Below, in pieces: positions 2,064 to 62,970 of a DNA stretch of 64,000 nucleotides. The DNA is from a virus. The stretch lies in the IMG/VR virus record IMGVR_UViG_3300024259_001791; one strand, written 5' to 3'. Both the position numbers and the translations under genes were made by a program. The notes below the pieces were generated by a model. It saw only the letters and a program-made list of their open reading frames with translations. It searched no databases and was not told where the DNA came from. Position 1 is the first letter of the stretch; each line of letters begins with the position of its first letter.

Positions 2064-4637
2064 TTGGCCGACTTTGACACAGGTGCTTTTGTAGCCGAAG
2101 ATACATTAACCAAAAAATTACAGTTGTGCCTTAAGAACGATTGGAATGTATTGTTTATCGGTAGACACGGTGTTGGCAAATCCAGCATTATTAAGAGTTT
2201 ATGGGACAATGAAGGGCTGAACTATCGTATGTTTTCTGCCGCCACTATGGACCCGTGGGTTGACTTTCTTGGGGTGCCAGCACGGGTTGAAGATAAAAAA
2301 ACAGGCAAAGCATATTTGAAGTTGATTAAGCCACGAGAATTTGAAGATGATGAAGTAGAAGCAATTTTGTTTGATGAATTTAACAGATGTTTAACTGGTG
2401 ATACTCCTATTCAATTAGCCGATGGTTATTCGATTCCTATTAAAGATTTAGTTGATAAAAAAGAGTTTTTTGTGTATAGTTATGATCTTAAAAATAAATG
2501 TATGGCTGTTGGAAGAGGTCATTCTGCCAGAAAAACTGGCAAAAAACAAAAAGTTATAAAAGTCACATTAGATAATGGGTTATCTGTACGATGTACTGGT
2601 GATCATCCTTTTCTTTTGACGACTGGTTTATATGTCAAAGCGGGTGATCTCGAACCTGATGATGCTCTAATGGCATTATACAAAAAATATAATAAAAATG
2701 GTTATGAATTAGTTTCTTCAGTACGACCAACTCGTTGGGAATTTACTTATCATTTAGCAGATAAATATAATATTTTAACTAAAATATACAAAAAAAGCAC
2801 TGGTGGTTATCGTCATCATAAAGATAAAAATCGTTTTAATAATTCTCCGTTAAATATCGAGCGGCTTTCAAAAGAAGAACATATTTTTAAACACGCTTCA
2901 GATGGAGGAAAAACTGTACATGAAAAATATCCACTACATTATTTAAGAACGATAGGTAATGCCAATAGTCGTTCTAAAGCCGTCGCAGCATCTATAAAAA
3001 CACGCCAATCAGACGAGCAGTACAAAAAAAATAGGTCGAAAATCTCTTTAAATTTCTGGGACAAACAAAAGAAAAACGAACAGTCTCAACGAGCAAAAAA
3101 AGCATGGGCGAATGGGCAATTTGACAACATAGATAGAGTAACTGCTAATCGTAAAGCGAGACTGTCATACACGATAAAAATTCTAAAAACACAATTAGAA
3201 GAAGGCGTATTGTTGACTCCGGAATTATATGAAACAATTCGTAGTCGAATAAAAAATTTGGCAAAAAATAGTCGTGGTAAATACCTCATGAAAATCAGCA
3301 CTCTCGAAAAACACTTTGGTTCTTTTGATAATTTTGTAAATCATTTTCAAAGTGAATATTCAGAAAACAAAAATCATAGAGTGATTAAAATTGAAGATGC
3401 TGGTTATGAAGATGTTTATGACATCACTGTGGATGATTATAATAACTTCGCAGTAGGACAAGGCGTGTTCGTCCATAATAGCCCAAAAAAAATTAGAAAT
3501 GCTGTGATGGAATTGATTCAATTCAAATCTATTAATGGTAGGGAATTCAAAAACTTGAAAGTAATTTGGGCGGCTATTAACCCAGATGATGATGAAGAAC
3601 TAGATTTCGACGTTGAGAAATTGGACCCTGCTCAAAAAGATAGATTCCAAATCCACATCGAATTGAAATTTGAACCAAGTATGCCTTATTTCATACACAA
3701 GTATGGAAAAGACGTAGCAAATGGTTCTATCGAATGGTGGAAGAAACTAAAAAAAGAGCATCCTGATATCATCACTAAGGTATCCCCTCGTCGTTTGGAT
3801 TATGCTCTTGAGATTTTCTTCAAGGGTGGAAATGTTGGCTATGCATTGCCAAAGGGTTGTAATCCGGCAGAATTGACCAAAATTATCAAAGAAAGACCAA
3901 TCATAGCGAAGCTAGAATCGTTGATGGTAGGAAAAGATGATGATAAAATCAAAGAATTTCTAGAAAATGAGAATAATTTTGATTTGGCAAAACATGAGAT
4001 ATTAAGAGATAGAGTAAAGGTCGATCTTTTTGTCCCATTTATGCCTGCTGAAAAAATCAATATGCTTATCTCTCAAAGCAGTAGCGTAATGATGTGGGCC
4101 TTGAAAAACTATTCTAGGCATAAAACGATCAAAGAAGCTTTGAAAGAAATTGAAAAAGCAGACATGAACAAAGCCTTGGTCAGCCAAATCAGAAAGCGTT
4201 TCTCAGAAGATGGCATGAAACAAATCTCGTCTATGCCGGATTCGCCTGCCGTAAATGATAATAGGATAGACAATTATCAAGTAAAGAAAAAAGAAACAGT
4301 CTCTTTTGGCAAACAACTTGACGATAAAATCGATGGCGATTTCGATTCTACATTTTTCAGAATCGATGCATTCAATGTTATTAAGAATGGAATGCCAAAT
4401 GTTATGTCTAAGGATACGTCTATTAAAGTATTAACAGTGTTGGAAAAAGTGATTAAGATGACTCACAGAGACACAGTAAAGAAATGGACTGAATTACCTG
4501 CCATGATTAATACGTGCATTGATAACCTGAAAACACATGGCTATAAATTCAGTAAATTCAAAGACTCTTTCCCCGCTGTTTTGGCATATGCGGCAGTAAA
4601 GAACGGATTCTATTTTAAGAGCAGAAAGGCATCATGA
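2064..4637 (+). CDS. MoxR/dynein-related AAA+ ATPase interrupted by an intein
   Basis: Walker A GRHGVGKS, Walker B LFDEFNR, WAAINP and LDPAQKDRF motifs; paired with a downstream VWA gene. Confidence 0.85.
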   Translation: MADFDTGAFVAEDTLTKKLQLCLKNDWNVLFIGRHGVGKSSIIKSLWDNEGLNYRMFSAATMDPWVDFLGVPARVEDKKTGKAYLKLIKPREFEDDEVEAILFDEFNRCLTGDTPIQLADGYSIPIKDLVDKKEFFVYSYDLKNKCMAVGRGHSARKTGKKQKVIKVTLDNGLSVRCTGDHPFLLTTGLYVKAGDLEPDDALMALYKKYNKNGYELVSSVRPTRWEFTYHLADKYNILTKIYKKSTGGYRHHKDKNRFNNSPLNIERLSKEEHIFKHASDGGKTVHEKYPLHYLRTIGNANSRSKAVAASIKTRQSDEQYKKNRSKISLNFWDKQKKNEQSQRAKKAWANGQFDNIDRVTANRKARLSYTIKILKTQLEEGVLLTPELYETIRSRIKNLAKNSRGKYLMKISTLEKHFGSFDNFVNHFQSEYSENKNHRVIKIEDAGYEDVYDITVDDYNNFAVGQGVFVHNSPKKIRNAVMELIQFKSINGREFKNLKVIWAAINPDDDEELDFDVEKLDPAQKDRFQIHIELKFEPSMPYFIHKYGKDVANGSIEWWKKLKKEHPDIITKVSPRRLDYALEIFFKGGNVGYALPKGCNPAELTKIIKERPIIAKLESLMVGKDDDKIKEFLENENNFDLAKHEILRDRVKVDLFVPFMPAEKINMLISQSSSVMMWALKNYSRHKTIKEALKEIEKADMNKALVSQIRKRFSEDGMKQISSMPDSPAVNDNRIDNYQVKKKETVSFGKQLDDKIDGDFDSTFFRIDAFNVIKNGMPNVMSKDTSIKVLTVLEKVIKMTHRDTVKKWTELPAMINTCIDNLKTHGYKFSKFKDSFPAVLAYAAVKNGFYFKSRKAS
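2388..3479 (+). mobile_element. intein (364 aa) with HNH homing endonuclease
   Basis: begins CLTGDTPI, block B CTGDHPF, ends VYDITV..NNFAVG.GVFVHN followed by Ser(+1); internal HHKDKNRFNNSPLNI HNH motif. Confidence 0.92.
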
Positions 4638-6055
4638 CGGAAACAGTCACAGCCAAAATAGATAATGATGAATTCTTTGCTATCGCTGATAGTCTGCAAG
4701 ATAAGCATGTGATTTTCCACAAATTTTGGGAAATGGGCAAACCAGGTTTTTCAGATAAAATCCCTACTGCTGGCGTGATCTTCAATAAAGAAGGCGAAGG
4801 GATGATTTTCGAATTCAATCCCAAATTTTGGAATTATCTCGATGATTATAGCCGCCGTTTTGTTATCTGCCACGAAATGCTCCATCTTATTCTGAATCAT
4901 GGAGTTAGGATGAAAGGTGTCAGAAAAAGCAATAGACAAGCAGTTAATGTATGTCTAGACATTGTAGTAAATCATTTGCTTGTTAATAAATTCGGTTTTA
5001 ATAGACACAAGATTAAAGGCTTCGAAAAGGATATGTTGCCAGAAGGTGCTGAACCTCATGGGGATTATCGTGACTTCTGTTGGGTAGATACTGTTTTTGA
5101 TCCAAAAAGACATCCAGAAATGTTGGAGACTTTAAAGGGCAGAATTCCACCCGACAACAAAAGCTTTGAATACTATTATAATCTTCTTCCTATAACTCCT
5201 GGTGGCGGCGGTGGAGAAGGCGATAGCGGAGAAGGTCAAGGACTTGGTAGTGATTCGTTTGACGACCATGATGGATTAAAGGACACAGAGGCATTAAAAG
5301 AAATCATCGAAGAATTAAACGAAGATATGACGGAAGAAGAAAAAAGCGACCTTGAAGATATGATTGATGAACATTTTCAAGAAGAAAAATTGCCCAAGGA
5401 TGGCAGCGGTCAAGGCGATCAAACTGCGGGCGTTGGGGCTGGCGGTTTTTGGTCATTTTCTAAAGTCGATAATGTACCTACAAAGAAAAAATGGGAAACC
5501 ATTATTAAAAAGTGGATGCTAAAAGAAGTTAAGTTTGCTTCACGCGACTTAGAACAATGGGTACGAATAAACAGACGGTTCACCATATTACCAAATGATT
5601 TCTTTTTGCCTACTGAAATGGAAGTAGAAGATTTATACGAAGAAGAAGGCAAAATCAAAGTATGGTTCGTGATTGACAATTCTGGCAGTTGCTCTCATCT
5701 ATTTGATCGTTTTGCTCATGCGGCAGCATCATTGCCTAGCGACAAGTTTGAGGTACGTCTATGGTGTTTTGATACAATGATGCATGAAGTAGTTATAACA
5801 AAAGGAAATATGAAAGCCCTTGGCGGTGGTGGTACGGCTTTTGATTGTATTGAGAGTACGATACAACGAGTTATTAAGAAAGAGAAATGCGAATACCCAA
5901 AAGCAGTGTGGGTATTAACGGATTCGTATGGGAACCATGTAAACCCTCAATATCCTAAACATTGGTTCTGGTTTTTAACTACTAATTATATGGAATACAT
6001 ACCAAAAGAATGTATCGACGCTAAACAAGTCTACGACTTAAGAGACTTCGAATAA
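4634..6055 (+). CDS. DUF2201-type metallopeptidase plus VWA domain protein
   Basis: HEMLH (HExxH) motif; Gly-rich linker; C-terminal MIDAS IDNSGS, GGGGT and LTD; ATGA overlap with the ATPase. Confidence 0.85.
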   Translation: MTETVTAKIDNDEFFAIADSLQDKHVIFHKFWEMGKPGFSDKIPTAGVIFNKEGEGMIFEFNPKFWNYLDDYSRRFVICHEMLHLILNHGVRMKGVRKSNRQAVNVCLDIVVNHLLVNKFGFNRHKIKGFEKDMLPEGAEPHGDYRDFCWVDTVFDPKRHPEMLETLKGRIPPDNKSFEYYYNLLPITPGGGGGEGDSGEGQGLGSDSFDDHDGLKDTEALKEIIEELNEDMTEEEKSDLEDMIDEHFQEEKLPKDGSGQGDQTAGVGAGGFWSFSKVDNVPTKKKWETIIKKWMLKEVKFASRDLEQWVRINRRFTILPNDFFLPTEMEVEDLYEEEGKIKVWFVIDNSGSCSHLFDRFAHAAASLPSDKFEVRLWCFDTMMHEVVITKGNMKALGGGGTAFDCIESTIQRVIKKEKCEYPKAVWVLTDSYGNHVNPQYPKHWFWFLTTNYMEYIPKECIDAKQVYDLRDFE

Positions 6056-7168
6056 ATACTTATATGCCTTATCTTTTTTTCTCTCTAAAAATAATGTAGC
6101 ATTATTGTACATCCAATTATAGATACGTATTTCCTGTAAACGTCCACCATATTCCAATGCATAATTATTAGCTTTTTTGTCATTCGTTTTTTTAGAGTAG
6201 ATTTTGACCATTGACAATCCACAACTAGAACATAATTGTTTTTGTAATCCCAAAATGAAATCACCACTTCCACACGCTACAGAAAAATGTATTCCGTTAC
6301 CATTTTTACCACTTTTTTTCCAACTGCCATCTCCATCAAAGTATCCCCTCACGAAATGATGTATAAGATGTTTTGGAATATTTTTAGTAGTTTTTTGCCA
6401 AGAGATAGTATGAGATTTCTTAGGTGTAATTCCTGATCTGTATAAGTCATTTATTATCTTATTGCTATGAATATCTATCCTCGCTATGCTAGATGGTTTA
6501 CCTCTTGATATATATGTTTTGATTCTAACGGGGTAATTACCAGTAATATGTTTACTAAATTTTTCAAGGTGTTTAACATCGTTTTCATGTATACCAATGT
6601 GGAGACAATTTTTAAATACATTACCATCTGCCCCTATAAATCCTAACCAATATGCTTTTTCTTCTGTATCTATTTTTTCAAAGAAATCAAAATTGCATGT
6701 ATATTTTCTCACTCCTTTAAACTTCCATACTTTGTTTTTAACCAATGTATATCTTATACCTGATGGAGTAACGTTAAAATGCCTTGCTATATCATTGACT
6801 CTTTTCCCTTTTTTATACATCTGTACTGCTTTTTTCTTCTTTTTATCAGTCCAATGTTTTGTCTTTGGGCGACGTTTGCCTATCGTATAAAGTTCCATTT
6901 CAATAAGTCTGTTTTTGATTGCTCTTTCTCCTACTTCAAAATCTTTTGCGATTTGACTGGCGGTTTCGTAATTAAGATAGCGTTGTTTAATTTCTTGGAG
7001 TTCTTCTTCTGTGAATTTCTTTCTGCCTTTAAATGCATTATGTCTCTTTAATAGGAATTGAATAGTCTTTTTGGTACATCCGTGTTCTTGTGCCAATTTG
7101 GGTGTTCCGATGCCAGATTGGTATTCTTTGACTATATGTTTCTCTTGTTCTGTAGTAAATTTGTACAT
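6038..7168 (-). CDS. free-standing LAGLIDADG homing endonuclease with N-terminal HTH repeats
   Basis: YWLGFIGADG and FVRGYFDGDGS; ATG at 7168 behind AAGGAG (track start 7210); opposite strand to neighbours. Confidence 0.85.
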   Translation of the reverse strand: MYKFTTEQEKHIVKEYQSGIGTPKLAQEHGCTKKTIQFLLKRHNAFKGRKKFTEEELQEIKQRYLNYETASQIAKDFEVGERAIKNRLIEMELYTIGKRRPKTKHWTDKKKKKAVQMYKKGKRVNDIARHFNVTPSGIRYTLVKNKVWKFKGVRKYTCNFDFFEKIDTEEKAYWLGFIGADGNVFKNCLHIGIHENDVKHLEKFSKHITGNYPVRIKTYISRGKPSSIARIDIHSNKIINDLYRSGITPKKSHTISWQKTTKNIPKHLIHHFVRGYFDGDGSWKKSGKNGNGIHFSVACGSGDFILGLQKQLCSSCGLSMVKIYSKKTNDKKANNYALEYGGRLQEIRIYNWMYNNATLFLERKKDKAYKYLFEVS

Positions 7169-7271
7169 TTTATCTCCTTTAAGTATCCAACGCTTCTTTC
7201 TATATAGCATGTAATCTATGGAAATTCCTTCTTCTAAAAAAGCTTTAAGCGAAAAAATAAATTACTGTTGC

Positions 7272-7278
7272 CTATAAT
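7272..7278 (+). promoter_or_regulatory. CTATAAT -10-like promoter motif in the array 1 leader
   Basis: same motif recurs in intergenic gaps upstream of many genes; 25 nt before the first repeat. Confidence 0.55.
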
Positions 7279-7302
7279 GTAGTATAAGTTAAAGAATAAT
7301 AA

Positions 7303-7576
7303 GTACTCCCCACGCGTGTGGGGGTGAACCGGACGGATGGCCACAATTTCGACATACTCTTGAAATATTCCCCACGCGTGTGGGGGTGAACCGACGATGC
7401 CGGGATTATCTGTATCTAAAGAAGAGTATTCCCCACGTATGTGGGGGTGAACCGCTTAGACAGCTTGCAGAATAGAAGGGAGTAACGTATTCCCCACGCG
7501 TGTGGGGGTGAACCGACAATGCCAGCTTGAGCAGCATAAGCAGCAATATATTCCCCACGTAAGTGGGGGTAAAAAA
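7303..7576 (+). CRISPR. CRISPR array 1, type I-E repeat, 5 repeats / 4 spacers
   Basis: 29-bp repeats RTAYTCCCCACGYRTGTGGGGGTGAACCG at 7303, 7365, 7426, 7487 and a degenerate one at 7548; spacers 33, 32, 32, 32 bp; CCCCAC/GTGGGG hairpin. Confidence 0.97.
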
Positions 7577-7619
7577 TAGAATTTTTCAATAAAAGTAAGG
7601 TGATTGTCGTAGATTGTTG

Positions 7620-7626
7620 CTATAAT
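7620..7626 (+). promoter_or_regulatory. CTATAAT motif upstream of cas3
   Basis: followed by AAGGA SD and ATG 7644. Confidence 0.55.
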
Positions 7627-7643
7627 GTGTTGAAGGAATAAAA

Positions 7644-10316
7644 ATGAGTAAAGACAAGTTAGATTTATTATTAAAATTGCCTGGTAAAAAAAGCGGTTTA
7701 AATTTGTATCCAACACTTTTTCATTGTTTTGATACTATGTTAGTTGCAAAAGAGATTATCAATTCATACCCAGAAAATGTTAAATTATGGATATCTGAAT
7801 CGCTTGGCATAAAAATCGAAGACTTAATTCCGCTTTTATCATTTATAATTGGACTACATGATATCGGAAAATTAACTCCTTCTTTTCTTCACCGTATTTT
7901 TGGAACAACAGATGACATACCGTTAAATATTAAGAAATATTTTTCTTGTGATGGGAGTAAGCCGGATTATTGGCATGCTCGTTCTAGTCAAGACATATTA
8001 AGAGAAGAAATGTGCGACGTATTTGATCAGTATGGGGAAAATATTTATGATTTTTTTAACATGATTGCCACTTTAACCGGAAATCATCATGGATCAAGTT
8101 CGCCTTTTGAGTCTGAAAAATTACAAAGAGGATCAGGTGCAGAATGGAAAGAAGTACGAAAATTATTTGTTAATTATATTCAAGATTTTTCTTGTATCGA
8201 TTTTTCAACTTTTAAAGACAATTTTTCAGATGAAATACCAAGAAAAATTTTAATTTGGATATTGGGATTTATGGTCGTGTGTGATTGGGTAGCATCCGCT
8301 TCTATCAATATCAATTCAAATTCGCCGTTTGATTATCGGTCATATATACTGGACGTGCCAAAACGAAGTAAAAAAATATCAACATTTTTATGTTCCAATC
8401 ATTTGATTTCAAACTATAAAATTTCTACTGTTGATTGGGAAACAATCATCGGATATCCGTTAAATGAATTGCAAAAAATAACTAAAGATTTTCTTGAGGA
8501 TGGGACAATAACGGCAGATTGCGCAGTGCTGGTTAAAGGCCCAACAGGTTACGGAAAAACCGAAACTAGCCATATGATTAAATATCATTTTTTGAAATCG
8601 GGAAAAGTGATTGGATGTTATACCGCGATGCCGACTCAATCTTCTAGCAACATGTTATATAAGCGTGAGAATATTTTTTTGAATAAAATAGGTGTTCTTG
8701 ATTCTAATTTAATTCATGGTCATGCTTATCTTGTAGACGATTTTACAAAAGTTGTTGCATTGTTGCCCAAAGAGGCAAGACAATGGTTAACCATGAAAAA
8801 AGTAGCGATGTTACAACCTCATGGTGTTGGCACAGTAGATCAGTTATTGTTTTCTATTTTGCCAGTAAGACATTTTTCCTTAAGGACTTTCGGTATCGCC
8901 CACAAAGTGATCACTTATGATGAGATTCACTCTTATGATTCTTTTACTGGTGCATTAAATTTAGAATCCATTTCTTGGTCTGCGAATACGGGTTGTCCTA
9001 CAGTCCTATTGTCTGCTACTATGTCTGATAAATTACAATATGACATTGTTAGTTCATATTTGGGTAAACATGATATCGATAAATTTTCTACTGGTTACGG
9101 TATTACTGTAATTAACCGTATAACAGGAAAAATTACTCATAAACCTCTACGGCTCGATAAAAAAGATGAAAAGAAAATTTCAATAGATTTTATTTCAGGA
9201 AAAAAAAGTATAGATAAAATAATATCTTCTGCAAACAACGGAGGATGTGTTTGTGTATATAAAAATACTGCGAAAACCGCAATAATAACACGCAAAAAAA
9301 TCAAAAAGACTCTCAAGAAAAACAATATTAATGATATAGAGGTTTATATTATTAGAAATAGATTTTCTCCACAAAAAAGACAAGAAATTGAAAATGATAT
9401 TGACAAAAAGTTTGGAAAAAATGGGCAACGGCCCAAAAAAGCAATTGTTATATCTACTCAAATTCTCGAACACAGTTTAGATTTGGATTTTGATGAAATA
9501 TTTACTGATTTGTGTCCGATTGATCACTTATTACAGCGTGGTGGGAGATTGCATCGATTCAATATAATTAGGCCGCTTGGAAAAGAAAAGCCACGCATGA
9601 ACATAATACTAGTTTCAAAAAATCCTGTTTATTTAAAATATTTTTGCATAAAAACTGAATTAGTTTTAAAAGATAAAAATGAAATAATTATTCCCACCGA
9701 TGTATCATCTCTTATAAATAAAGTTTATAATTTTTCGAATCATGATACGATAACTAATGACAAAAATCAAATTTTAGAATTAGATAAATTACAAAAAAAG
9801 GTAGAAAAAAGTGAGAAAAAAGACTCTCGTGAATCTACATTGCAAATAATTGGAAAACCGTCATCGTTGATAGATGATGCAAAAGAAATTATTTTAGAAC
9901 GTAATTTATATTCTATAAACGGAAAAGACATAGAAAAAGAAATAGAGTTGGGAATTACTCAAATACCACTTACTAGAAAAAAATCTTTTTCCGCTAGTTT
10001 GATTTATATTTTCAAGATCAATGGAAAGTGTTATTACGACAATTTAGGAAAACAAGAAATTGATATTAATGATTCTGAATTGGTCAAAAATTTAATAGAA
10101 AAATGCTCCATTAGTTCTATTTTCGCTTTTGAAAAGATTTTTGAAGAAAATAAATCAATTTTTAAAAGGATTAGTAATTCTAAAAAATGGGAAACTATTT
10201 GGGACGATACCTGTCTCCAATATTACCATTTAATTGTATTAGAAAATAACGAATCTAATATCGGGTGCGGAAAAAAAGTTACCTTTGATCCGGAAGTTGG
10301 AGTAGACATCGAGTGA
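7644..10316 (+). CDS. cas3: Cas3 HD nuclease-SF2 helicase
   Basis: LFHCFD, LHDIGK, NHHG and CDWVAS HD residues; GPTGYGKT, AMPTQ, GTVDQ, DEIH, LSAT, STQILEHSLDLDFD and QRGGRLHR helicase motifs; adjacent to the array. Confidence 0.95.
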   Translation: MSKDKLDLLLKLPGKKSGLNLYPTLFHCFDTMLVAKEIINSYPENVKLWISESLGIKIEDLIPLLSFIIGLHDIGKLTPSFLHRIFGTTDDIPLNIKKYFSCDGSKPDYWHARSSQDILREEMCDVFDQYGENIYDFFNMIATLTGNHHGSSSPFESEKLQRGSGAEWKEVRKLFVNYIQDFSCIDFSTFKDNFSDEIPRKILIWILGFMVVCDWVASASININSNSPFDYRSYILDVPKRSKKISTFLCSNHLISNYKISTVDWETIIGYPLNELQKITKDFLEDGTITADCAVLVKGPTGYGKTETSHMIKYHFLKSGKVIGCYTAMPTQSSSNMLYKRENIFLNKIGVLDSNLIHGHAYLVDDFTKVVALLPKEARQWLTMKKVAMLQPHGVGTVDQLLFSILPVRHFSLRTFGIAHKVITYDEIHSYDSFTGALNLESISWSANTGCPTVLLSATMSDKLQYDIVSSYLGKHDIDKFSTGYGITVINRITGKITHKPLRLDKKDEKKISIDFISGKKSIDKIISSANNGGCVCVYKNTAKTAIITRKKIKKTLKKNNINDIEVYIIRNRFSPQKRQEIENDIDKKFGKNGQRPKKAIVISTQILEHSLDLDFDEIFTDLCPIDHLLQRGGRLHRFNIIRPLGKEKPRMNIILVSKNPVYLKYFCIKTELVLKDKNEIIIPTDVSSLINKVYNFSNHDTITNDKNQILELDKLQKKVEKSEKKDSRESTLQIIGKPSSLIDDAKEIILERNLYSINGKDIEKEIELGITQIPLTRKKSFSASLIYIFKINGKCYYDNLGKQEIDINDSELVKNLIEKCSISSIFAFEKIFEENKSIFKRISNSKKWETIWDDTCLQYYHLIVLENNESNIGCGKKVTFDPEVGVDIE

Positions 10317-10323
10317 TGCATGA

Positions 10324-10330
10324 CTATAAT
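10324..10330 (+). promoter_or_regulatory. CTATAAT motif upstream of cas8e
   Basis: intergenic, followed by GGAG SD and ATG 10351. Confidence 0.55.
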
Positions 10331-10350
10331 GGTATACGAAGCAGGAGAAA

Positions 10351-11955
10351 ATGATGAGCGATAAAGCTTACAATTTATTAGATGAACAATTTATTCGTTG
10401 TTGCTGTAATGATGGCGGTGTTAAAATGCATTCTCTTAAAAGCATTTTTGAAGATTCGCATTCTGTGATAGAAATCATTTGCAAAAATGAGTGGGAAAGA
10501 ATATCTCTTTTGAGATTGATGCAATCCGTATTGTATTGCTCATCTTTATTTTTGACATTAAAAGACTGTAAGACATTGTGGAAGCAAACCAAATTTAACG
10601 ATCAAGATGTCAAAAAAATTCATAATTATTTAGAATCGTGTCGAGAAAAATTTTATCTTATTCACCCAAAATATCCTTTTTTGCAGACTTCTGAAGATAT
10701 GGATGAAAAAACTATATCTCACATTTATTGTTTGGGATATGAAGGCGAATCTTCAATGCCATTTTTTAATCATACGACTAATAATAGCGGCCCAATTGAT
10801 GCTATTGATACTGTTGTACAGCTTATCTCTATGCAATTCATAGTCCCGGCGGGAGGTAGGGGATATATCACTTCGGAATTATCAGGTAAAAATATTTATT
10901 TAATTGGGGGTAACAATCTTTTTGAAATAATTTCATTAAATACTATTCCGTATAAAACATTTGCTGCATCATTTGGAGAGGATACGGTTGATTTAAGTGA
11001 CGATTTACCTTCGTGGGAAAGTGAAGAAAAATCTATTGCAAAAAAAATCGGTCCCATTAATTATATGACTACGACTCATAGAAAAATAAAATTGATCCCT
11101 GATGGTGGTGACACGCTGAAATTTAAGAAAATGTATTTTTCTGCAAAGAATAGAACTGAAATAGGGTATAAACAATATGAAGATACAATTATAGAACCTT
11201 TATTTTGTTACAGCCGCAAATTAGTGACTGATAAAAAAGTCGACAAAAAAATATCGAAGTGGATTCCTTTTAACGTAGACAAAAACAAATATCGAAAACA
11301 ACTTTCTTGGATTAATTGCCATTCACTAATTAATTATAAAAACCAAGATATTAAATGTCCAAAAAATATAAAACACGCCACTGAATTACTTAAAAATAGT
11401 TGTAGTTTTTCGTATCCTATTGAAGTATCAATTAGCGGCGTAAAGTCAGCTTCAATTCGCTATATATACAGGTCAAAGCTTCCGATAGAATTAACTTCAA
11501 ATTTTTCTTTGGAAGATAATATGGAAATATTTTCTGATGAAATTCGATGCTTATGCGACGAATTTATAAAAGAAGAAAAATCTTTAAAAAAAGTCATAAA
11601 CGATAACTTCGATTTTGTACAAGGTAAGAAGAAAGAAAAAAATGACAAGAAAAGTAGCAACAGTACAGTCACTGAAAAATATTTGTTTTCATATTGGTCT
11701 AATGTCAGCCAGAAATTTAAAAATATAATGGTTAAAGATATTGAAAAATCAATACTATTAAAAAAGATTACCGAATGTAGAGAAAAGAACATTAAAATAT
11801 GTCATGGTATATCAGATCGTATCTTGAAATCTATCAGAAAAGATGTTGGAAAAAGATACTTGGAGAATTGGGTAAAAGCTTCTAACTCATTGAAGAAAAA
11901 AAGAAATTATAAAAAAGGAGTTGTAAAAAATGAACGAAACAAAACAAAAAAATGA
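10351..11955 (+). CDS. cas8e: Cas8e (Cse1/CasA) large subunit
   Basis: YNLLDEQFI N-terminus, PFLQ, GNNLFEIISLN and GPINYMT..RKIKL motifs; position after cas3. Confidence 0.8.
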   Translation: MMSDKAYNLLDEQFIRCCCNDGGVKMHSLKSIFEDSHSVIEIICKNEWERISLLRLMQSVLYCSSLFLTLKDCKTLWKQTKFNDQDVKKIHNYLESCREKFYLIHPKYPFLQTSEDMDEKTISHIYCLGYEGESSMPFFNHTTNNSGPIDAIDTVVQLISMQFIVPAGGRGYITSELSGKNIYLIGGNNLFEIISLNTIPYKTFAASFGEDTVDLSDDLPSWESEEKSIAKKIGPINYMTTTHRKIKLIPDGGDTLKFKKMYFSAKNRTEIGYKQYEDTIIEPLFCYSRKLVTDKKVDKKISKWIPFNVDKNKYRKQLSWINCHSLINYKNQDIKCPKNIKHATELLKNSCSFSYPIEVSISGVKSASIRYIYRSKLPIELTSNFSLEDNMEIFSDEIRCLCDEFIKEEKSLKKVINDNFDFVQGKKKEKNDKKSSNSTVTEKYLFSYWSNVSQKFKNIMVKDIEKSILLKKITECREKNIKICHGISDRILKSIRKDVGKRYLENWVKASNSLKKKRNYKKGVVKNERNKTKK

Positions 11956-12427
11956 TTTAAAGGTTAATTTCATAAAACACTTAAATCAATTGCTTGTTAA
12001 AGATAATGTGGAAGCAATTAATTGCTATAGGCGCTGTTTGAAATTAGAGGATAAAAATGCTCGTCGGCAAACATGCGAGTATAAAGGGTGTACCCCTTAT
12101 AAATTCATGAAAGAATTTTTCTTTATTGGTGGGTTATTTATGGAATATAAAAATAATACAGATAAAGAATATAAGAATTTTGGAGATTCTTGTCGTGAAT
12201 TATATTTTGCGATGGACAAGGCTGATTTGATAAACAATTATTTTCGCAATTTATTGACTCTTGACAACATTGATACAGTTCTTATAGAAATCAAAAGATT
12301 AATTAGTCGAATGACAGAATATTCTATAAAAATTAATTATTCCAATATGTTATCTGATATAATGAATTGGCATCATAAAGATGAGTTTGTGCAAGACAAA
12401 TTAGCGCTATCTTTTTGGAAGAATTAA
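11930..12427 (+). CDS. cse2: Cse2 (Cas11/CasB) small subunit
   Basis: helical 165 aa; FGDSC, FRNLL, INYSNMLSDIMNW and VQDKLALSFW resemble Cse2; position between cas8e and cas7. Confidence 0.75.
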   Translation: MNETKQKNDLKVNFIKHLNQLLVKDNVEAINCYRRCLKLEDKNARRQTCEYKGCTPYKFMKEFFFIGGLFMEYKNNTDKEYKNFGDSCRELYFAMDKADLINNYFRNLLTLDNIDTVLIEIKRLISRMTEYSIKINYSNMLSDIMNWHHKDEFVQDKLALSFWKN

Positions 12428-12460
12428 TATAACATAATTATAATAAAGGAGAACAAAATT

Positions 12461-13633
12461 ATGACGATGGAAATCGAAAAAGATGTATTAAGAAAAAACA
12501 GAGGAAACAATTTTGGGGCACCGCACCTTGTCTTAGATATGATTTGGAACAGTCCTGGTGCTAATTTCGTTCGTGACGATATGAATCACCCCAAAAACAC
12601 ATTTTCGGCAGCATTGCTACGTGCAGTTCGAGAAAATTCCAGTAGCCCAGTTAGAATTACTGCCAGCAGAACTGAAGCTATTGATTTTATTAAGAATCAC
12701 GTTCGTGAAATACTGAAAGATAGTGTTGAAATTGATAAAGAAACATTAGATGAAAAAACAGAAGATATCTATGGCAGATATTTTCAAGGTAAGAAGAAAG
12801 AAGAAAAAAATAACAAGAAAAGTGATAACAAGAAAAGTGATAACAAGAAAGATCAACAATTTTTAGGATTTAAGGAAGAATTGCAACATATCGGGAATCA
12901 TATAGCATCGTTGTATGTCGGTAAAGACGAAAAATTGACTCAATTTATTCCTATAGATATTTGGAGAGGCAACCCGGCTTTAGTTAAGACGGAAAATGTT
13001 GATGGGACAAATCAATTACACTGTGATGGTTGTCTGCGCATGAATGGTTATAAACTTGGGTTGCCTACTGCAAAAAGCGAATTTATTGTAGCTAAAGATG
13101 ACTTATGCCTTACTCAGTCTAAAGGTTCTTTTATGGGCATTCGTTACGCACACAGTGATTCACTTTACTATGTTAGTGCTTGTATAGAACTTGTACGTCC
13201 TTTTGAATTAAGTGGTTTGCACAAAAGAGATTTTGAAGATGACTTCAAAGAATTAATTACGAATATAATTTATTCCCGTCCAAACGGCATGACCGAAATT
13301 TACAATAACGATCAGATTACGACAGAATTTATAACGGCACGAATTAGACATGGTGGACAACGTACTTATGGGTGTGGTGGAGTTTATGGAAAAACCACCC
13401 CACAAGGAGCGGAGTCTACAGGAGAGGTTGTAGATCATCTAATCTCATATTTGGATTATCAGTTGGCAAATCATGGAGATTATGAGAATAATAATGTAGA
13501 ATGTTTTTATGTTCCTTTATGGAATTGGAAAACACAATATCCAGATCGTTGGGAATCTTGTAAAAATCATCCTTCTTTCGTGGAAAAACTAGCGAAAACA
13601 AGTATCGAAGCAATTGATAAACATTTAGGATAA
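12461..13633 (+). CDS. cas7: divergent Cas7e (CasC)
   Basis: RDDMNHPK, LLRAVR, EFIVAKDDL and LYYVSAC motifs; size and position. Confidence 0.7.
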   Translation: MTMEIEKDVLRKNRGNNFGAPHLVLDMIWNSPGANFVRDDMNHPKNTFSAALLRAVRENSSSPVRITASRTEAIDFIKNHVREILKDSVEIDKETLDEKTEDIYGRYFQGKKKEEKNNKKSDNKKSDNKKDQQFLGFKEELQHIGNHIASLYVGKDEKLTQFIPIDIWRGNPALVKTENVDGTNQLHCDGCLRMNGYKLGLPTAKSEFIVAKDDLCLTQSKGSFMGIRYAHSDSLYYVSACIELVRPFELSGLHKRDFEDDFKELITNIIYSRPNGMTEIYNNDQITTEFITARIRHGGQRTYGCGGVYGKTTPQGAESTGEVVDHLISYLDYQLANHGDYENNNVECFYVPLWNWKTQYPDRWESCKNHPSFVEKLAKTSIEAIDKHLG

Positions 13634-13638
13634 TAATA

Positions 13639-14994
13639 ATGGCAGGAATTATATTAAAGATGGAAGGACAAAGACAATCGTATGGTATTCAAAGTCATTA
13701 CAGCGTTCGTGACACCGAAAAATTTCCAACGAAATCAGCAGTTGTGAACATGGTACGTGCCGCTGCTGGTATTGGTCGAACAAATGAGAAATTGATTGAA
13801 TTGAATGATACAAAAATGACGGTTAGGATTGATTATCCAGGTGAATATAAAGAAGATTTTAGAACAGCACAATTTGAAGATCGCCTAACAAGAGGAGAAA
13901 AACCATCAAAAAATAAAACTATAGTTCAATATAAACACTATTTATGCGATGCGAGTTTTTTAGTGTTATTAGATTCACCTGATTCGGAATTGATAGAGTG
14001 GGTAGCTGGTGTTGTTAAGAGTCCAGAATGGTATCCATATCTTGGAAGGAGAGAATACGAACCATCTGCACCTATATATGTGAGGCATTGGTCTGATAAG
14101 TCTATCGGAAAGGATATCCTAGAAAAAGAACCGTGGTTTTATCGTGGTGATGTTAAAAAACCTGAAAAATTGGAATATATTCAAGAAATACCAAACAATG
14201 ATAAAGATGGTATTTTAATCAAGGATGTAATGATTAATTCTGCCGATAGAATTTTTAGTTATCGAAAAATTAAATCAGTTGAAAAGCCATTAAATGCTGA
14301 ATTGATTAAAGAAACTCCTAGTTTTACGGTATCTCATGGACATATGCCCGCTATCAAAAAAAGAAAAAACCAAATTATTTTCGAGAACAAATGTGATCAA
14401 AATGCAGATGAATACATTACTATTTTAAAATTTGAAAATGAAAATTATGTTTATCAATTCGCAAATCATCCTCATGACTTTTTTCATATAATTTGTAAGT
14501 CTCTCCCGTCTATAGATGATGGAGGAAAGGGAAGATGTTTATTCTCTGTACAAGAATCTCATATAATAGTTAAAACTGAAAAAAAACCTGATTGGTCTTT
14601 TTTAAACGAATACAATAAAGGAATTATAAAGTGTTGTATTCATCCTGTAATATATGACAAATGGGATCAATTAAATCATCTCCGTTGTTGGTTACGGTAT
14701 AATCCAGTTAAAAGACTAGACGGAAAAAATGTATTATTAAAAACTGAACGAGAACGATTGGAATGGTTGAATAAAAGAAGTAAAAATTATGGTTTGAAGA
14801 TTTTGAATTGTAATATATCACATACTGAAAAAGTCGAAGGTAAACAGCATAATATTATTGTCGCTGATGTAGAATTAGAAATTAAAGTTGTTGACAAAGA
14901 GTTGTTTGTTGAAGCATGTAAAAATGGTATCGGTAGAGAGAAAAATGCAGGATGTGGTTTATTGTTATTCGAAAATATGATTTTTAGGTCGTAA
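13639..14994 (+). CDS. Cas5e-Cas6e fusion protein
   Basis: N-half: LKMEGQRQSYG, RDTEKFPTKSAVV and PYLGRR (Cas5e); C-half: RYNPVKR, EWLNKR and G-rich loop GIGREKNAGCGLL (Cas6e); no stop between them. Confidence 0.85.
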   Translation: MAGIILKMEGQRQSYGIQSHYSVRDTEKFPTKSAVVNMVRAAAGIGRTNEKLIELNDTKMTVRIDYPGEYKEDFRTAQFEDRLTRGEKPSKNKTIVQYKHYLCDASFLVLLDSPDSELIEWVAGVVKSPEWYPYLGRREYEPSAPIYVRHWSDKSIGKDILEKEPWFYRGDVKKPEKLEYIQEIPNNDKDGILIKDVMINSADRIFSYRKIKSVEKPLNAELIKETPSFTVSHGHMPAIKKRKNQIIFENKCDQNADEYITILKFENENYVYQFANHPHDFFHIICKSLPSIDDGGKGRCLFSVQESHIIVKTEKKPDWSFLNEYNKGIIKCCIHPVIYDKWDQLNHLRCWLRYNPVKRLDGKNVLLKTERERLEWLNKRSKNYGLKILNCNISHTEKVEGKQHNIIVADVELEIKVVDKELFVEACKNGIGREKNAGCGLLLFENMIFRS

Positions 14995-15067
14995 TGTGAT
15001 CAACACTTATATCTGCAAAACTACCATATATAGTGTTTTTGTTGATTATGTCATACAGGATGTTAGT

Positions 15068-15590
15068 GTACTCCCCACGCGTGTGGGGGTGAACCGGCCT
15101 CGTGCCCTCTGAGACACTGTTGTATAGACGTACTCCCCACGCGTGTGGGGGTGAACCGACTACAGAAAAGATATGAACATATCATAGAACGTACTCCCCA
15201 CGCGTGTGGGGGTGAACCGATTGGAGACAAGATAGTTTGCAGAAACGCACTGGTACTCCCCACGCGTGTGGGGGTGAACCGGAATAGTCAATTTTTTGCG
15301 GAAAGAATACATCACGTACTCCCCACGCGTGTGGGGGTGAACCGGTGACGGGTTTTGTATTATGTTTGCAATAGTTGTACTCCCCACGCGTGTGGGGGTG
15401 AACCAGAGGAATTTGTAGACAAGTGAGGCGATCATAAGTATTCCCCACGCATTGTGGGGGTGAACCTGCTGCTGGACAAACTGTATTCAGAGGCGTACCA
15501 AATTCCCCACGCATGTGGGGGTGAACCGCAATACCGCCACGCCAGTAACTCTACTATTTGGTATTTCCCCACTCGTGTGGGGGTGAACAT
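15068..15590 (+). CRISPR. CRISPR array 2, type I-E repeat, 9 repeats / 8 spacers
   Basis: GTACTCCCCACGCGTGTGGGGGTGAACCG at 15068, 15130, 15191, 15253, 15316; variants at 15377, 15438, 15500, 15561; spacers 32-34 bp; degeneration toward the 3' end. Confidence 0.98.
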
Positions 15591-15658
15591 GGACGTTAGA
15601 ACTTGGTGATAACAACCAACGATATAGTTGACTAACAATCTATATAAGGAGAATCACA

Positions 15659-16144
15659 ATGGCTGAAAGAGTACATTTTACGATTAGTCACACAAACAGA
15701 GAAACAGTAGAACGATTTTTAAACTATGCAAATGAAAAACACGTATTTGAAGAAAAAGACGGATACTTAGCAGGAGTAGGCGACGAACTGCTTGACGGAC
15801 AAGGAGTTGGTTTCTTTGAGATTCTAAATGCTGAATGGTTCTATAAATTGGCAGGATTGATTACAATTTTAGGAATTGAAGGAATGACTGCCGTAGCACG
15901 ATTTAGTAGTGAATGCTATACAGAGGCACATGTGTTTATCTGTAGCGATTCTAAATGGCATGAAATATATGTATCCAATGTAGAAAGTGATTTTTGCAAC
16001 AGTTTACAATTTTATGGAGACGGAATAAGAAGACGTTTAGAAGAAATTGCTGTATACATGGACGAAAGGCAAGAGAAAATGAAAAAAGAACGAGCAGAAG
16101 AAGTAAAAGTAAGAGAGGCAGCAAAAATAAATTCAGGAGAATAA
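15659..16144 (+). CDS. hypothetical protein (paralog set A)
   Basis: SD AAGGAG; shares a GxxG...W.EIY segment with the next two ORFs. Confidence 0.75.
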   Translation: MAERVHFTISHTNRETVERFLNYANEKHVFEEKDGYLAGVGDELLDGQGVGFFEILNAEWFYKLAGLITILGIEGMTAVARFSSECYTEAHVFICSDSKWHEIYVSNVESDFCNSLQFYGDGIRRRLEEIAVYMDERQEKMKKERAEEVKVREAAKINSGE

Positions 16145-19496: not shown

Positions 19497-19564
19497 AAAG
19501 ACCACCATCTCACCTATAATAAATTAGCAAGGGGCCAGTGTGTCCCTATAATCGGAGATTTATT

Positions 19565-62898: not shown

Positions 62899-62970
62899 TC
62901 ATGAGTAGTGTAGTAGTGGCACACCACCCCTATTAGGGTGGCAGCATAGGTGCAAGTCCTGTCTCGTGAG
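62899..62970 (+). tRNA. tRNA-like gene (Asn-like) with 6-nt anticodon loop
   Basis: acceptor TCATGAG/CTCGTGA, D-stem GTGT/ACAC, CACCC-CTATTA-GGGTG, T-arm ATAGG-TGCAAGT-CCTGT, G73. Confidence 0.6.

What the first reader, a model, noticed from the sequence alone, without database searches (positions are those of the whole stretch)
7303..15590. Phage-like element carrying an adaptation-less type I-E CRISPR-Cas locus bracketed by two arrays
Seen: array 1 - cas3 - cas8e - cse2 - cas7 - cas5/6 - array 2, all on +, with no cas1 or cas2 in the locus or the window. Cas3 HD and helicase catalytic motifs look intact. CTATAAT motifs of the type found before the surrounding genes sit before array 1, cas3 and cas8e. 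Established: large phages can carry interference modules and borrow host Cas1-Cas2. Inference: this is a domesticated, nuclease-competent system under element control, aimed at competing elements or the host.
Basis: partly seen in the sequence, partly recalled or inferred. Interest (0 to 1): 0.85.

Follow-up and report, generated by a model that had tools for sequence, protein, structure and literature searches.

The report
Giant marine phage's acquisition-less CRISPR weapon
A very large, uncultured marine phage-like element carries a complete-looking type I-E CRISPR-Cas attack module (Cas3 plus Cascade, two small fixed arrays) without the genes for acquiring spacers; this kind of system is known from huge phages, but here Cas5 and Cas6 are fused into one protein and Cas7 is remodelled almost beyond recognition.

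Summary
Array 1 (5 repeats, 4 spacers), cas3, cas8e, cse2, cas7, a cas5-cas6e fusion and array 2 (9 repeats, 8 spacers) all lie on the + strand at 7303-15590.

- **No adaptation genes:** no cas1, cas2 or cas4 appears in the window or in about 109 kb of the element searched in all six frames. Roughly 134 kb more of the element could not be read.
- **Cas3:** the HD nuclease and helicase motifs are intact.
- **The element:** it is marine, at least about 243 kb if overlapping contigs are joined, almost entirely co-directional and rich in phage families. It is probably a jumbo phage, but no capsid or terminase gene was seen.
- **Arrays:** they are identical in every sample, so nothing indicates ongoing spacer uptake.
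- **Targets:** none was found in the collections searched, nor in the 109 kb of the element's own DNA that was read.
- **Divergence:** Cas3 is at most 31% identical to any of 5.8 billion proteins. Cas7 has no sequence relative among 1.84 billion representatives and is recognisable only by profile and fold. The conserved catalytic histidine column of Cas6e holds Phe, with a His next to it.

Verdict: a new variant of a known kind, namely the adaptation-less CRISPR-Cas systems of huge phages. This scan has already noted huge-phage type I-E Cascades on other DNA, but those lacked a Cas3 nuclease. Function and targets remain inferred.

The parts
6038..7168 (-). Neighbouring gene for a protein with repeated HTH domains and a LAGLIDADG domain, a likely free-standing homing endonuclease. 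It is transcribed away from array 1. Whether it belongs to the system is uncertain.
   Evidence: Pfam HTH_28, HTH_7, HTH_23 and LAGLIDADG_3. The NCBIfam Cbp1 hit is far below its cut-off. A ribosome-binding site with ATG at 7166-7178 on the minus strand puts the start at 7168. Other assemblies call the gene at 376 aa.
7169..7302 (+). AT-rich leader of array 1, with a promoter-like -10 element (CTATAAT at 7272-7278) about 25 nt before the first repeat.
   Evidence: Sequence read; motif enrichment.
7303..7576 (+). CRISPR array 1: five 29-nt repeats (the last degenerate) and four spacers of 32-33 nt.
   Evidence: Identical in all other assemblies.
7617..7626 (+). Extended -10 promoter-like element (TGCTATAAT) 18 nt before the cas3 start codon.
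7644..10316 (+). cas3 (890 aa): an N-terminal HD nuclease fused to an SF2 helicase.
   Evidence: PADLOC Cas3e 6.8e-124. TIGR01587 and TIGR01596 score above their cut-offs. The HD, HH and DW motifs and helicase motifs I, II (DEIH), III (SAT), V and VI align to 4q2c. The nearest homologue is at most 31% identical.
10303..10330 (+). Internal sigma-70-like promoter (TAGACA, 16 nt, TATAAT) between cas3 and cas8e.
   Evidence: Joint-highest score in the scan, 11 of 12, and the best on the + strand. CTATAAT at 10324.
10351..11955 (+). cas8e / cse1 (534 aa), the large subunit of Cascade.
   Evidence: Pfam CRISPR_Cse1 2.4e-38 over residues 8-462. PADLOC Cas8e 1.6e-37.
11930..12427 (+). cse2 / cas11e (165 aa), the small subunit.
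   Evidence: Pfam CRISPR_Cse2 1.8e-10. TIGR02548 32.5 bits against a cut-off of 28.5.
12461..13633 (+). Strongly remodelled cas7 (390 aa).
   Evidence: Pfam CT1975 scores only 1.2e-3, below threshold. phmmer on 1.84 billion representatives finds only the protein itself. hhalign against a Cas7e profile gives E 2.4e-4 over 251 collinear columns. The ESM Atlas's own model best matches a Cas7e cluster, TM 0.55/0.59. All 50 top Foldseek hits are Cas7e chains. The FGGxRRxRISSQ segment and the AHAISTH motif are missing.
13639..14994 (+). cas5e-cas6e fusion (451 aa): Cas5 domain about 1-215, linker about 216-256, Cas6e domain about 257-451.
   Evidence: TIGR01868 105.6 bits against a cut-off of 68.95. 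Pfam Cas_Cas5d 3e-29 and CRISPR_assoc 2.3e-18. The Cas6e domain model has pLDDT 85.5 and matches T. thermophilus Cse3 at TM 0.72-0.81. Exactly the same protein is encoded on 12 contigs. No ribosome-binding site precedes the internal Met236.
15068..15590 (+). CRISPR array 2: nine repeats (the last three degenerate) and eight spacers of 32-34 nt. It starts 73 nt after the cas5-6 stop codon and has no promoter motif of its own, so it is probably transcribed by read-through.
   Evidence: Across samples only three SNPs occur, all in the terminal repeat.

Best explanation
[quoted passage not shown] It is carried and expressed by a very large marine phage-like element, most likely a jumbo tailed phage, as a fixed RNA-guided DNA-degrading weapon.

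**Proposed mechanism**
1. Array 1 is transcribed from its own extended -10 promoter. Array 2 is transcribed by read-through from the cas operon.
2. The Cas6e domain of the Cas5-Cas6e fusion binds the repeat hairpin, a 6-bp CCCCAC/GUGGGG stem with a GCGU loop. It cuts 3' of the stem and leaves the 8-nt 5' handle GUGAACCG.
3. The Cas5 domain caps that handle.
4. Remodelled Cas7 subunits coat the 32-33-nt guide. Cse2 and Cas8e complete Cascade.
5. Cas8e reads a PAM, an R-loop forms, and the HD-helicase Cas3 is recruited to nick and shred the target.

**Consequences**
- Without Cas1-Cas2 the twelve guides are hard-wired. They are probably aimed at conserved sequences of a competitor element or of the host.
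- The system has evolved inside the AT-rich element for a long time. The cas genes have 29-33% GC, the proteins are at most 31% identical to any relative, and the repeat has nevertheless stayed canonical.

**Shown:** the parts, their order, the motifs, the folds, the static arrays, and the absence of cas1/cas2 in 109 kb.

**Inferred:** expression, crRNA processing, complex assembly, DNA cleavage, the targets, and that the carrier is a phage.
For: - **Cas proteins:** every I-E interference protein is identified.
- **Cas3:** all catalytic motifs are present.
- **Reading frames:** five long ORFs stay open in DNA of 29-33% GC.
- **Repeat:** it folds into the I-E hairpin with an 8-nt handle, at -13.1 kcal/mol. 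Spacer lengths of 32-34 nt are canonical.
- **Expression signals:** the element's own promoter motif precedes array 1, cas3 and cas8e. Strong ribosome-binding sites precede cas8e, cse2 and cas7.
- **No adaptation genes:** PADLOC finds none. Custom HMMs find none over about 109 kb, while the controls score 3e-145 and 1e-42.
- **Static arrays:** they are identical in all assemblies and runs.
- **Carrier:** 41 PHROG families match at E<1e-8. The window has 6 tRNA genes, RNA ligase 2, SSB, homing endonucleases and inteins. An upstream contig is 150 kb long, and a 1142-aa protein there has tail-fibre-like neighbours. The element is found in seawater metagenomes.
- **Precedent:** almost all huge-phage CRISPR systems lack Cas1, Cas2 and Cas4 (PMC7162821; PMC11656645).
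Against: - **No target:** no protospacer was found for any spacer. This covers GenBank phages with both arrays, IMG/VR with 7 spacers, JGI contigs with 2 spacers, species genomes with 1 spacer, plasmids with array 2, and the element's own DNA.
- **Cas6e active site:** the catalytic His column, at least 90% His in 23 canonical Cas6e, holds Phe282, with His283 beside it. Processing may be impaired or done differently.
- **Cas7:** it lacks two conserved segments and models poorly, with pLDDT 54.
- **Fusion geometry:** Cas5 and Cas6 sit at opposite ends of canonical Cascade, so the fusion may not fit the standard architecture.
- **No selection signal:** all copies are 99.95-100% identical, so selection cannot be measured.
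- **No expression data:** no RNA run holds the locus.
- **Carrier unproven:** no capsid, portal or terminase gene was seen.
- **Unread DNA:** about 134 kb of the element was not readable, so a distant cas1-cas2 is not excluded.
Confidence: 0.6

Rival explanations
1. A binding-only or regulatory Cascade. The remodelled complex binds its targets, in host or competitor genes, and represses them rather than destroying them. Cas3 would be dispensable or conditionally used, as in type IV-A systems, CASTs and the Cas3-less phage Cascades.
For: An internal promoter before cas8e allows Cascade to be expressed without cas3. The guide set is fixed and small. Repression by phage and plasmid systems has precedent (PMC7162821; PMC11656645). 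This scan has noted huge-phage I-E Cascades with nuclease-free helicases.
Against: Cas3 is full length, has its own promoter, and keeps every HD and helicase motif. Systems that only bind usually lose or inactivate the nuclease.
Confidence: 0.15
2. A decaying or already inactive relic. The locus was captured long ago and no longer works, for example because Cas6e has lost its catalytic His and Cas7 its RNA-binding segments. The arrays are fossils.
For: Phe sits at the catalytic His column. Cas7 has deletions. Terminal repeats are degenerate and the arrays are static. No target was found.
Against: Five ORFs totalling 2,430 codons have no stop or frameshift in 29-33% GC DNA, where stop codons arise easily. 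Promoters and ribosome-binding sites are kept. The leader-proximal repeats are perfect. The Cas6e domain still folds confidently, at pLDDT 85.5. The G-rich loop and the Cas3 motifs are kept. Extreme divergence with intact frames points to evolution under selection rather than decay.
Confidence: 0.12
3. The carrier is not a virus but another giant extrachromosomal element, such as a megaplasmid, or a mis-binned host island. The system would then serve ordinary defence or inter-element competition for that element.
For: No capsid, portal or terminase gene was recognised in about 109 kb. The element is absent from IMG/VR and from GenBank phages.
Against: About 100 kb of small co-directional genes with phage-type content. 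This includes 41 PHROG families, RNA ligase 2, PNKP, Thg1, a tRNA cluster, many homing endonucleases and inteins, and thymidylate synthase. A 1142-aa protein has viral tail-fibre or tailspike clusters as its nearest Atlas neighbours. No plasmid replication or conjugation genes were seen.
Confidence: 0.13

Closest known systems
Canonical type I-E CRISPR-Cas (E. coli K-12, T. fusca, T. thermophilus: Cas3, Cascade, Cas1-Cas2)
   Same: Same gene order, cas3-cas8e-cse2-cas7-cas5-cas6e. Same 29-nt repeat with hairpin and 8-nt ...AACCG handle, and same 32-33-nt spacers. The HD domain is fused at the N-terminus of Cas3. A 24-nt stretch of the repeat is identical to that of cellular I-E arrays at 76 loci in genomes of many phyla.
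   Different: No Cas1-Cas2. Cas5 and Cas6e are one polypeptide, whereas in 22 canonical loci examined no ORF matched both. Cas7 is about 20% identical where canonical Cas7e proteins are at least 59% identical to one another. Two short arrays flank the operon. The cas genes have 29-33% GC.
Adaptation-less CRISPR-Cas systems of huge phages (Al-Shayeb et al. 2020, PMC7162821; review PMC11656645)
   Same: A very large phage-like genome, no Cas1, Cas2 or Cas4, small arrays, and an effector nuclease with conserved catalytic residues.
   Different: The type I example described in that paper is a I-C variant with a helicase in place of Cas3 and no Cas6. Here the system is I-E with a bona fide HD-Cas3 and a Cas6e domain. 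The habitat is marine, and no spacer target or host link was found.
Vibrio phage ICP1 type I-F system (Seed et al. 2013, as summarised in PMC11656645)
   Same: A phage-borne type I system with Cas3-type nuclease activity, used offensively.
   Different: ICP1 carries Cas1 and acquires spacers. It is subtype I-F, its target (PLE) is known, and the phage is about 125 kb and cultured.
Type I-E Cas5-HNH Cascade (PDB 8yb6, 8zp7, 9jxs)
   Same: A type I-E variant whose Cas5 carries an extra C-terminal domain. These chains are among the sequence hits of the fusion's Cas5 part.
   Different: There the added domain is an HNH nuclease that replaces Cas3, and Cas6e stays separate. Here the added domain is Cas6e itself, and Cas3 is kept.
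Locus L015 (JGI 3300037657), carrying the nearest Cas3 homologue at 30% identity
   Same: A I-E operon with no cas1-cas2 on its 13-kb contig, followed by an array.
   Different: cas5 and cas6e are separate and Cas7 is canonical. GC is 42-52%, and the array has 19 repeats. Its carrier is unknown.

Membership tests
Type I-E CRISPR-Cas | Cas8e (Cse1) large subunit | tested here: met
   Pfam PF09481 2.4e-38, 132.9 bits against a cut-off of 24.7. PADLOC Cas8e 1.6e-37. The NCBIfam equivalog scores below its cut-off, reflecting divergence.
Type I-E CRISPR-Cas | Cse2 (Cas11e) small subunit as a separate gene | tested here: met
   TIGR02548 32.5 bits against a cut-off of 28.5. Pfam PF09485 1.8e-10.
Type I-E CRISPR-Cas | Cas7e (Cse4/CasC) backbone subunit | tested here: inconclusive
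   **For:** it sits at the expected position in the operon. hhalign gives E 2.4e-4, probability 43%. The Atlas single-sequence model best matches a Cas7e cluster at TM 0.55/0.59. All 50 best Foldseek hits are Cas7e chains.

**Against:** the Pfam score is below its gathering threshold. There is no phmmer relative and no PDB sequence hit. Two conserved segments are missing. My own model has pLDDT 54.
Type I-E CRISPR-Cas | Cas5e | tested here: met
   TIGR01868 105.6 bits against a cut-off of 68.95. PDB 5u07_N 3.4e-20.
Type I-E CRISPR-Cas | Cas6e fold with G-rich loop | tested here: met
   Pfam PF08798 67.7 bits against a cut-off of 25. The model has pLDDT 85.5. Foldseek matches Cse3 at E 1e-15, TM 0.72-0.81. 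The G-rich loop GIGREKNAGCGLL aligns with the canonical loop.
Type I-E CRISPR-Cas | Cas6e catalytic histidine (E. coli H20, T. thermophilus H26) | tested here: not met
   In a 24-sequence alignment the column that is at least 90% His holds Phe282. His283 follows it. Whether His283 can substitute is not testable here.
Type I-E CRISPR-Cas | Cas3 with N-terminal HD nuclease fused to an SF2 helicase, motifs intact | tested here: met
   TIGR01596 57.4 bits against 43.45, and TIGR01587 171.7 against 102.45. The motifs were seen in the alignment to 4q2c.
Type I-E CRISPR-Cas | 29-nt repeat with stem-loop and 8-nt 5' handle; 32-33-nt spacers | tested here: met
   A 24-nt stretch of the repeat is identical to cellular I-E arrays. 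No Rfam family reached E 0.01.
Type I-E CRISPR-Cas | Cas1e-Cas2e adaptation module | tested here: not met
   Absent from the window and from about 109 kb searched in six frames with custom profiles. About 134 kb of the element was not readable.
Adaptation-less CRISPR-Cas of huge phages | Carried on a phage genome (virion genes present) | tested here: inconclusive
   Phage-type gene content and at least about 243 kb inferred. There is a tail-fibre-like lead with Atlas scores of 0.77-0.84, all under 0.9. No capsid, portal or terminase gene was seen.
Adaptation-less CRISPR-Cas of huge phages | No Cas1, Cas2 or Cas4; short arrays | tested here: met
   for the DNA that could be read.
Adaptation-less CRISPR-Cas of huge phages | Spacers match host genes or competing phages | tested here: not met
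   No match in any collection searched. The searches needed exact or near-exact matches and did not cover all spacers in every collection.

The most novel reading that the evidence does not exclude
The Cas5-Cas6e fusion binds a whole CRISPR repeat as one unit. Its Cas6e domain sits on the hairpin and its Cas5 domain on the 8 nt immediately downstream, which become the next crRNA's 5' handle. Together with the remodelled Cas7, this would give a Cascade of non-canonical architecture. For example, neighbouring complexes could stay tethered head to tail after cleavage, or a single complex could have its two crRNA ends held together. Processing might use a shifted active site, His283 in place of the canonical His. 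This would be a structurally new type I effector that evolved inside a phage.
Probability: 0.2. Interest if true: 0.8.

Novelty: new variant of a known kind. Interest (0 to 1): 0.55.

Why it matters
Phage-borne CRISPR systems without acquisition genes are already documented, so the headline claim is not new. Three things are new.
- A type I-E system that keeps a full HD-Cas3 sits on a marine jumbo-phage-like genome from a lineage with no cultured or database relatives.
- Cas5 and Cas6e are a single polypeptide. I found no report of such a fusion in the paper library, and none in 22 canonical loci.
- Cas7 is so remodelled that sequence search finds no relative among 1.84 billion proteins, yet the repeat RNA has stayed canonical.

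If the complex is active, it shows how far Cascade can be rebuilt while using the same crRNA. It would also offer a compact four-gene Cascade for structural and engineering study. The fixed twelve-guide set implies conserved targets, still unknown, in an ocean phage-host or phage-phage conflict.

Tried and rejected
**Whole genome**
- No whole genome is held for this window.
- Records behind my loci cannot be searched as wholes.

**Spacer targets: all negative**
- GenBank phages, both arrays.
- IMG/VR, 7 spacers with every sixth base masked.
- JGI metagenome contigs, 2 spacers. That collection did not return the element's own arrays either, so it evidently lacks these samples.
- 185,579 species genomes, spacer A1_s4.
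- PLSDB plasmids, array 2: only repeat-to-repeat hits to Thermus and Lactobacillaceae I-E arrays.
- The element's own DNA.

**Host from the repeat: rejected.** The same 24-nt stretch of the repeat occurs at 76 loci in Chloroflexota, Bacillota, Nitrospinota, Actinomycetota and others, mostly non-marine.

**Selection from population variation: impossible.** All contigs are 99.95-100% identical.

**Spacer-spacer similarity** (A1_s2 against A1_s4, 17 of 32): not significant, P about 0.06.

**Solitary repeats** elsewhere in the element: none.

**Full-length fold of the fusion: abandoned.** MAFFT would not place the Cas6e rows on the C-terminal half, so the Cas6e domain was folded alone.

**Rfam:** no family reached E 0.01 across 7000-16000.

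**Generic sigma-70 scan:** not enriched overall, 52 sites against 43.5 expected.

**Cbp1-like hit of the neighbouring HTH protein:** rejected as a generic HTH match, 48.6 bits against a cut-off of 140.

**Al-Shayeb et al. 2022 (Cell):** not held in the library. From memory it surveys phage-encoded CRISPR-Cas of all types. I could not check whether it lists a I-E system like this one.
Full report
**1. Observation**

The repeat is 29 nt, GTACTCCCCACGCGTGTGGGGGTGAACCG.
- Array 1 has five repeats, starting at 7303, 7365, 7426, 7487 and 7548. The last is degenerate. It has four spacers.
- Array 2 has nine repeats, from 15068 to 15590. The last three are degenerate and one carries a 1-nt insertion. 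It has eight spacers.
- Spacers are 32-34 nt.
- The repeat RNA folds into a 6-bp CCCCAC/GUGGGG stem with a GCGU loop, extended in the predicted fold by three flanking pairs. Five unpaired bases, the end of the 8-nt GUGAACCG handle, follow at the 3' end (-13.1 kcal/mol). This is the type I-E layout.
- Degeneration at the 3' ends and the AT-rich 5' flanks place both leaders upstream, so both arrays read in the same direction as the genes.

**2. The proteins**

- **Cas3** (7644-10316, 890 aa) matches the PADLOC Cas3e model at 6.8e-124 and passes the NCBIfam cut-offs for the Cas3 core and the HD domain.
  - Aligned to the T. terrenum Cas3 structure 4q2c, it keeps the HD dyad (GLHDIGK), the HH pair (GNHHG) and the DW motif.
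  - It also keeps helicase motifs I (GPTGYGKTE), II (DEIHSYD), III (SAT), V and VI (QRGGRLHR).
- **Cas8e** and **Cse2** are secure.
- The last gene is a single 451-aa ORF with a Cas5e domain (residues 4-209) and a Cas6e domain (275-443).
  - Exactly this protein is encoded on 12 independently assembled contigs, so the fusion is not an assembly error.
  - No ribosome-binding site precedes the only internal Met of the linker, so a separately translated Cas6e is not indicated.
  - Folded with 23 canonical Cas6e sequences, the C-terminal part gives a confident model (pLDDT 85.5, pTM 0.80). The ordered domain starts at about residue 257, which leaves a linker of about 40 aa.
  - The model superposes on T. 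thermophilus Cse3 at TM 0.72-0.81. The G-rich loop is kept.
  - The column that is His in at least 90% of canonical Cas6e, the catalytic His, holds Phe282, with His283 next to it.

**3. Cas7**

The 390-aa protein at the Cas7 position is the outlier.
- Pfam CT1975 scores only 1.2e-3, below threshold.
- The PDB sequence search finds nothing.
- An exhaustive phmmer search of 1.84 billion representatives finds only the protein itself.
- Canonical Cas7e proteins are at least 59% identical to one another across more than a hundred listed hits. This protein is 17-24% identical to them.
- It lacks the FGGxRRxRISSQ segment and the AHAISTH motif.
- Homology is still supported. hhalign against a 31-sequence Cas7e profile gives E 2.4e-4 over 251 collinear columns.
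- The ESM Atlas's own single-sequence model best matches a Cas7e cluster (TM 0.55/0.59 over 265 residues). Other Cas7 families follow.
- My own low-confidence model (pLDDT 54) hits only Cas7e chains in the PDB. That last result is partly circular, because I supplied Cas7e sequences as the alignment.

**4. No adaptation module**

- Among the 99 other ORFs of at least 60 aa in the window, PADLOC shows no Cas1, Cas2 or Cas4 among the 25 families listed. Five further families, all with E above 0.018, were not listed.
- I built Cas1e and Cas2e profiles from 24 and 25 sequences harvested next to canonical arrays. I then searched every stop-to-stop frame of all DNA held from this element, from window position -40.2 kb to +68.5 kb, about 109 kb.
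- The best hit had E 0.014 and lies inside cas8e, so it is noise. A canonical locus scored 3e-145 and 1e-42 as the positive control.
- The element is larger than what I could read (section 6), so absence from the whole genome is not shown.

**5. Expression signals**

- CTATAAT occurs 41 times in the window against 15.5 expected, and none of 100 shuffles reached 41. Of the 41 copies, 32 are on the + strand, and many lie 10-45 nt before start codons.
- Copies lie at 7272 (about 25 nt before the first repeat of array 1), at 7620 (as TGCTATAAT, an extended -10, before cas3), and at 10324 (before cas8e).
- At the cas8e site the generic scan gives its best + strand score, TAGACA-16-TATAAT, 11 of 12.
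- Array 2 has no such motif and starts 73 nt after the cas5-6 stop codon, so read-through is the simplest reading.
- cas8e, cse2 and cas7 have AGGAG ribosome-binding sites.

**6. The carrier**

- No genome is held for the window. It is absent from GenBank phages and from IMG/VR.
- The same DNA occurs in seawater and marine metagenomes. All contigs are 99.95-100% identical, so this is one clone. The many "studies" may be one sampling series.
- Walking by exact proteins gave collinear contigs from -40.2 kb to about +69 kb. One upstream contig is 150,434 bp long and ends at -23.1 kb. If joined by their overlaps, the element is at least about 243 kb.
- About 100 kb is almost purely + strand small genes.
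- The window holds RNA ligase 2, SSB, PARP, ARH, NUDIX and radical SAM genes, homing endonucleases, an intein-split ATPase, six tRNA genes and 41 PHROG families.
- Upstream lie an NAD-dependent ligase, Thg1, PNKP, thymidylate synthase, two dCMP deaminases, and intein-bearing methyltransferase and IMPDH genes.
- A 1142-aa minus-strand protein has viral tail-fibre or tailspike clusters as its nearest Atlas neighbours. The scores are 0.77-0.84, which makes this a lead only.
- No capsid, portal or terminase gene was seen. I rate a jumbo phage at about 0.8.

**7. Arrays are static and targets unknown**

- Spacer content and order are identical in every assembly and in four further runs. The only differences are three SNPs in the terminal degenerate repeat.
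- One low-depth contig hints at an extra unit at the old end of array 2. This is not leader-end acquisition.
- No protospacer was found in any collection or in the element's own DNA.
- Mean spacer GC is 42%, against 36% for the window.

**8. Origin**

- The nearest Cas3 in 5.8 billion proteins is 30-31% identical.
- The top hit's locus (L015) also lacks cas1-cas2 on its 13-kb contig but has separate cas5 and cas6e. The next one examined (L016) is canonical, with cas1-cas2 and an almost identical repeat.
- The same 24-nt stretch of the repeat is found at 76 loci in cellular genomes of many phyla, so it does not identify a host.
- The cas genes have 29-33% GC, lower than their flanks.
- Long residence and fast protein evolution with a conserved RNA is the simplest reading.

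**9. Comparison and verdict**

- Huge phages with CRISPR-Cas systems lacking Cas1, Cas2 and Cas4 are established (PMC7162821; PMC11656645).
- Trans use of host I-E Cas1-Cas2 has been shown for a type IV-A plasmid system (cited in PMC11656645), not for phages. Nothing here indicates it.
- This scan has already reported huge-phage I-E Cascades on other DNA, but with nuclease-free helicases. Here Cas3 is complete.
- I found no report of a Cas5-Cas6 fusion in the library, and none among 22 canonical loci. Cas5-HNH fusions are the nearest precedent.
- The locus is therefore a new variant of a known kind. Function, targets and the virus status of the carrier remain inferences.

Noticed in passing
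window 15659-16144 (+): The 161-aa ORF directly after array 2 has no family hit. One of the weak structural neighbours of its Atlas model is a Cas2 cluster, at TM 0.46/0.55 over 95 residues, from a low-confidence model. My Cas2e profile did not match it. This is a lead only, since the ferredoxin-like fold is common.
   Followed up: partly
window 15500-15561, seen in run X4: One low-depth contig joins 15539 back to 15504 with 25 other letters between. This looks like an extra repeat-spacer unit at the trailer end of array 2, whose spacer starts with the same 11 nt as spacer 8. It suggests a minor array variant or a duplication.
   Followed up: no
window 2064-4637; L097:1360-3384; L097:5111-7630: Inteins or Hint domains interrupt several genes: an AAA ATPase (857 aa), a D12-class DNA methyltransferase, and IMPDH, which is called as two genes around a Hint domain. 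Many free-standing LAGLIDADG, HNH and DUF559 endonuclease genes are also present. The load of selfish elements is unusually heavy.
   Followed up: no
window 19538-20611; L105:1-796; L097:3906-4667: A T4-like RNA repair set is present: RNA ligase 2, polynucleotide kinase-phosphatase and a Thg1-family enzyme, alongside a tRNA cluster. This would fit a counter to host anticodon nucleases.
   Followed up: no
window 62899-62970: ARAGORN calls a tRNA-like gene of undetermined identity (anticodon given as 'at') inside the tRNA cluster.
   Followed up: no
window, ORF not identified (probably the radical SAM gene at 22458-23597): One ORF matches the PADLOC prokaryotic viperin (pVip) models at 7e-16 and 1.4e-13. 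A viperin-like enzyme on a phage-like element would be unusual. The tally output does not say which ORF matched.
   Followed up: no
L105:6477-9905 (-), about 30 kb upstream of the window: A 1142-aa protein sits at the point where gene direction flips. Its nearest Atlas clusters are viral tail-fibre or tailspike (beta-helix) proteins, with scores of 0.77-0.84, and it has a weak DUF2793 hit. It is the only candidate virion gene seen.
   Followed up: partly
L015:9837-11006: The locus of the nearest Cas3 homologue also lacks cas1-cas2 on its 13-kb contig. Its 19-repeat array has variable repeats and two adjacent units carrying the same spacer (10090-10215, 95% identical).
   Followed up: partly
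window 6038-7168 (-): A protein with repeated HTH domains and a LAGLIDADG domain diverges from array 1 across a 134-nt leader. It gives a sub-threshold hit to the archaeal CRISPR repeat-binding protein Cbp1, 48.6 bits against a cut-off of 140. This is probably generic HTH similarity, but its position beside the leader is worth noting.
   Followed up: partly
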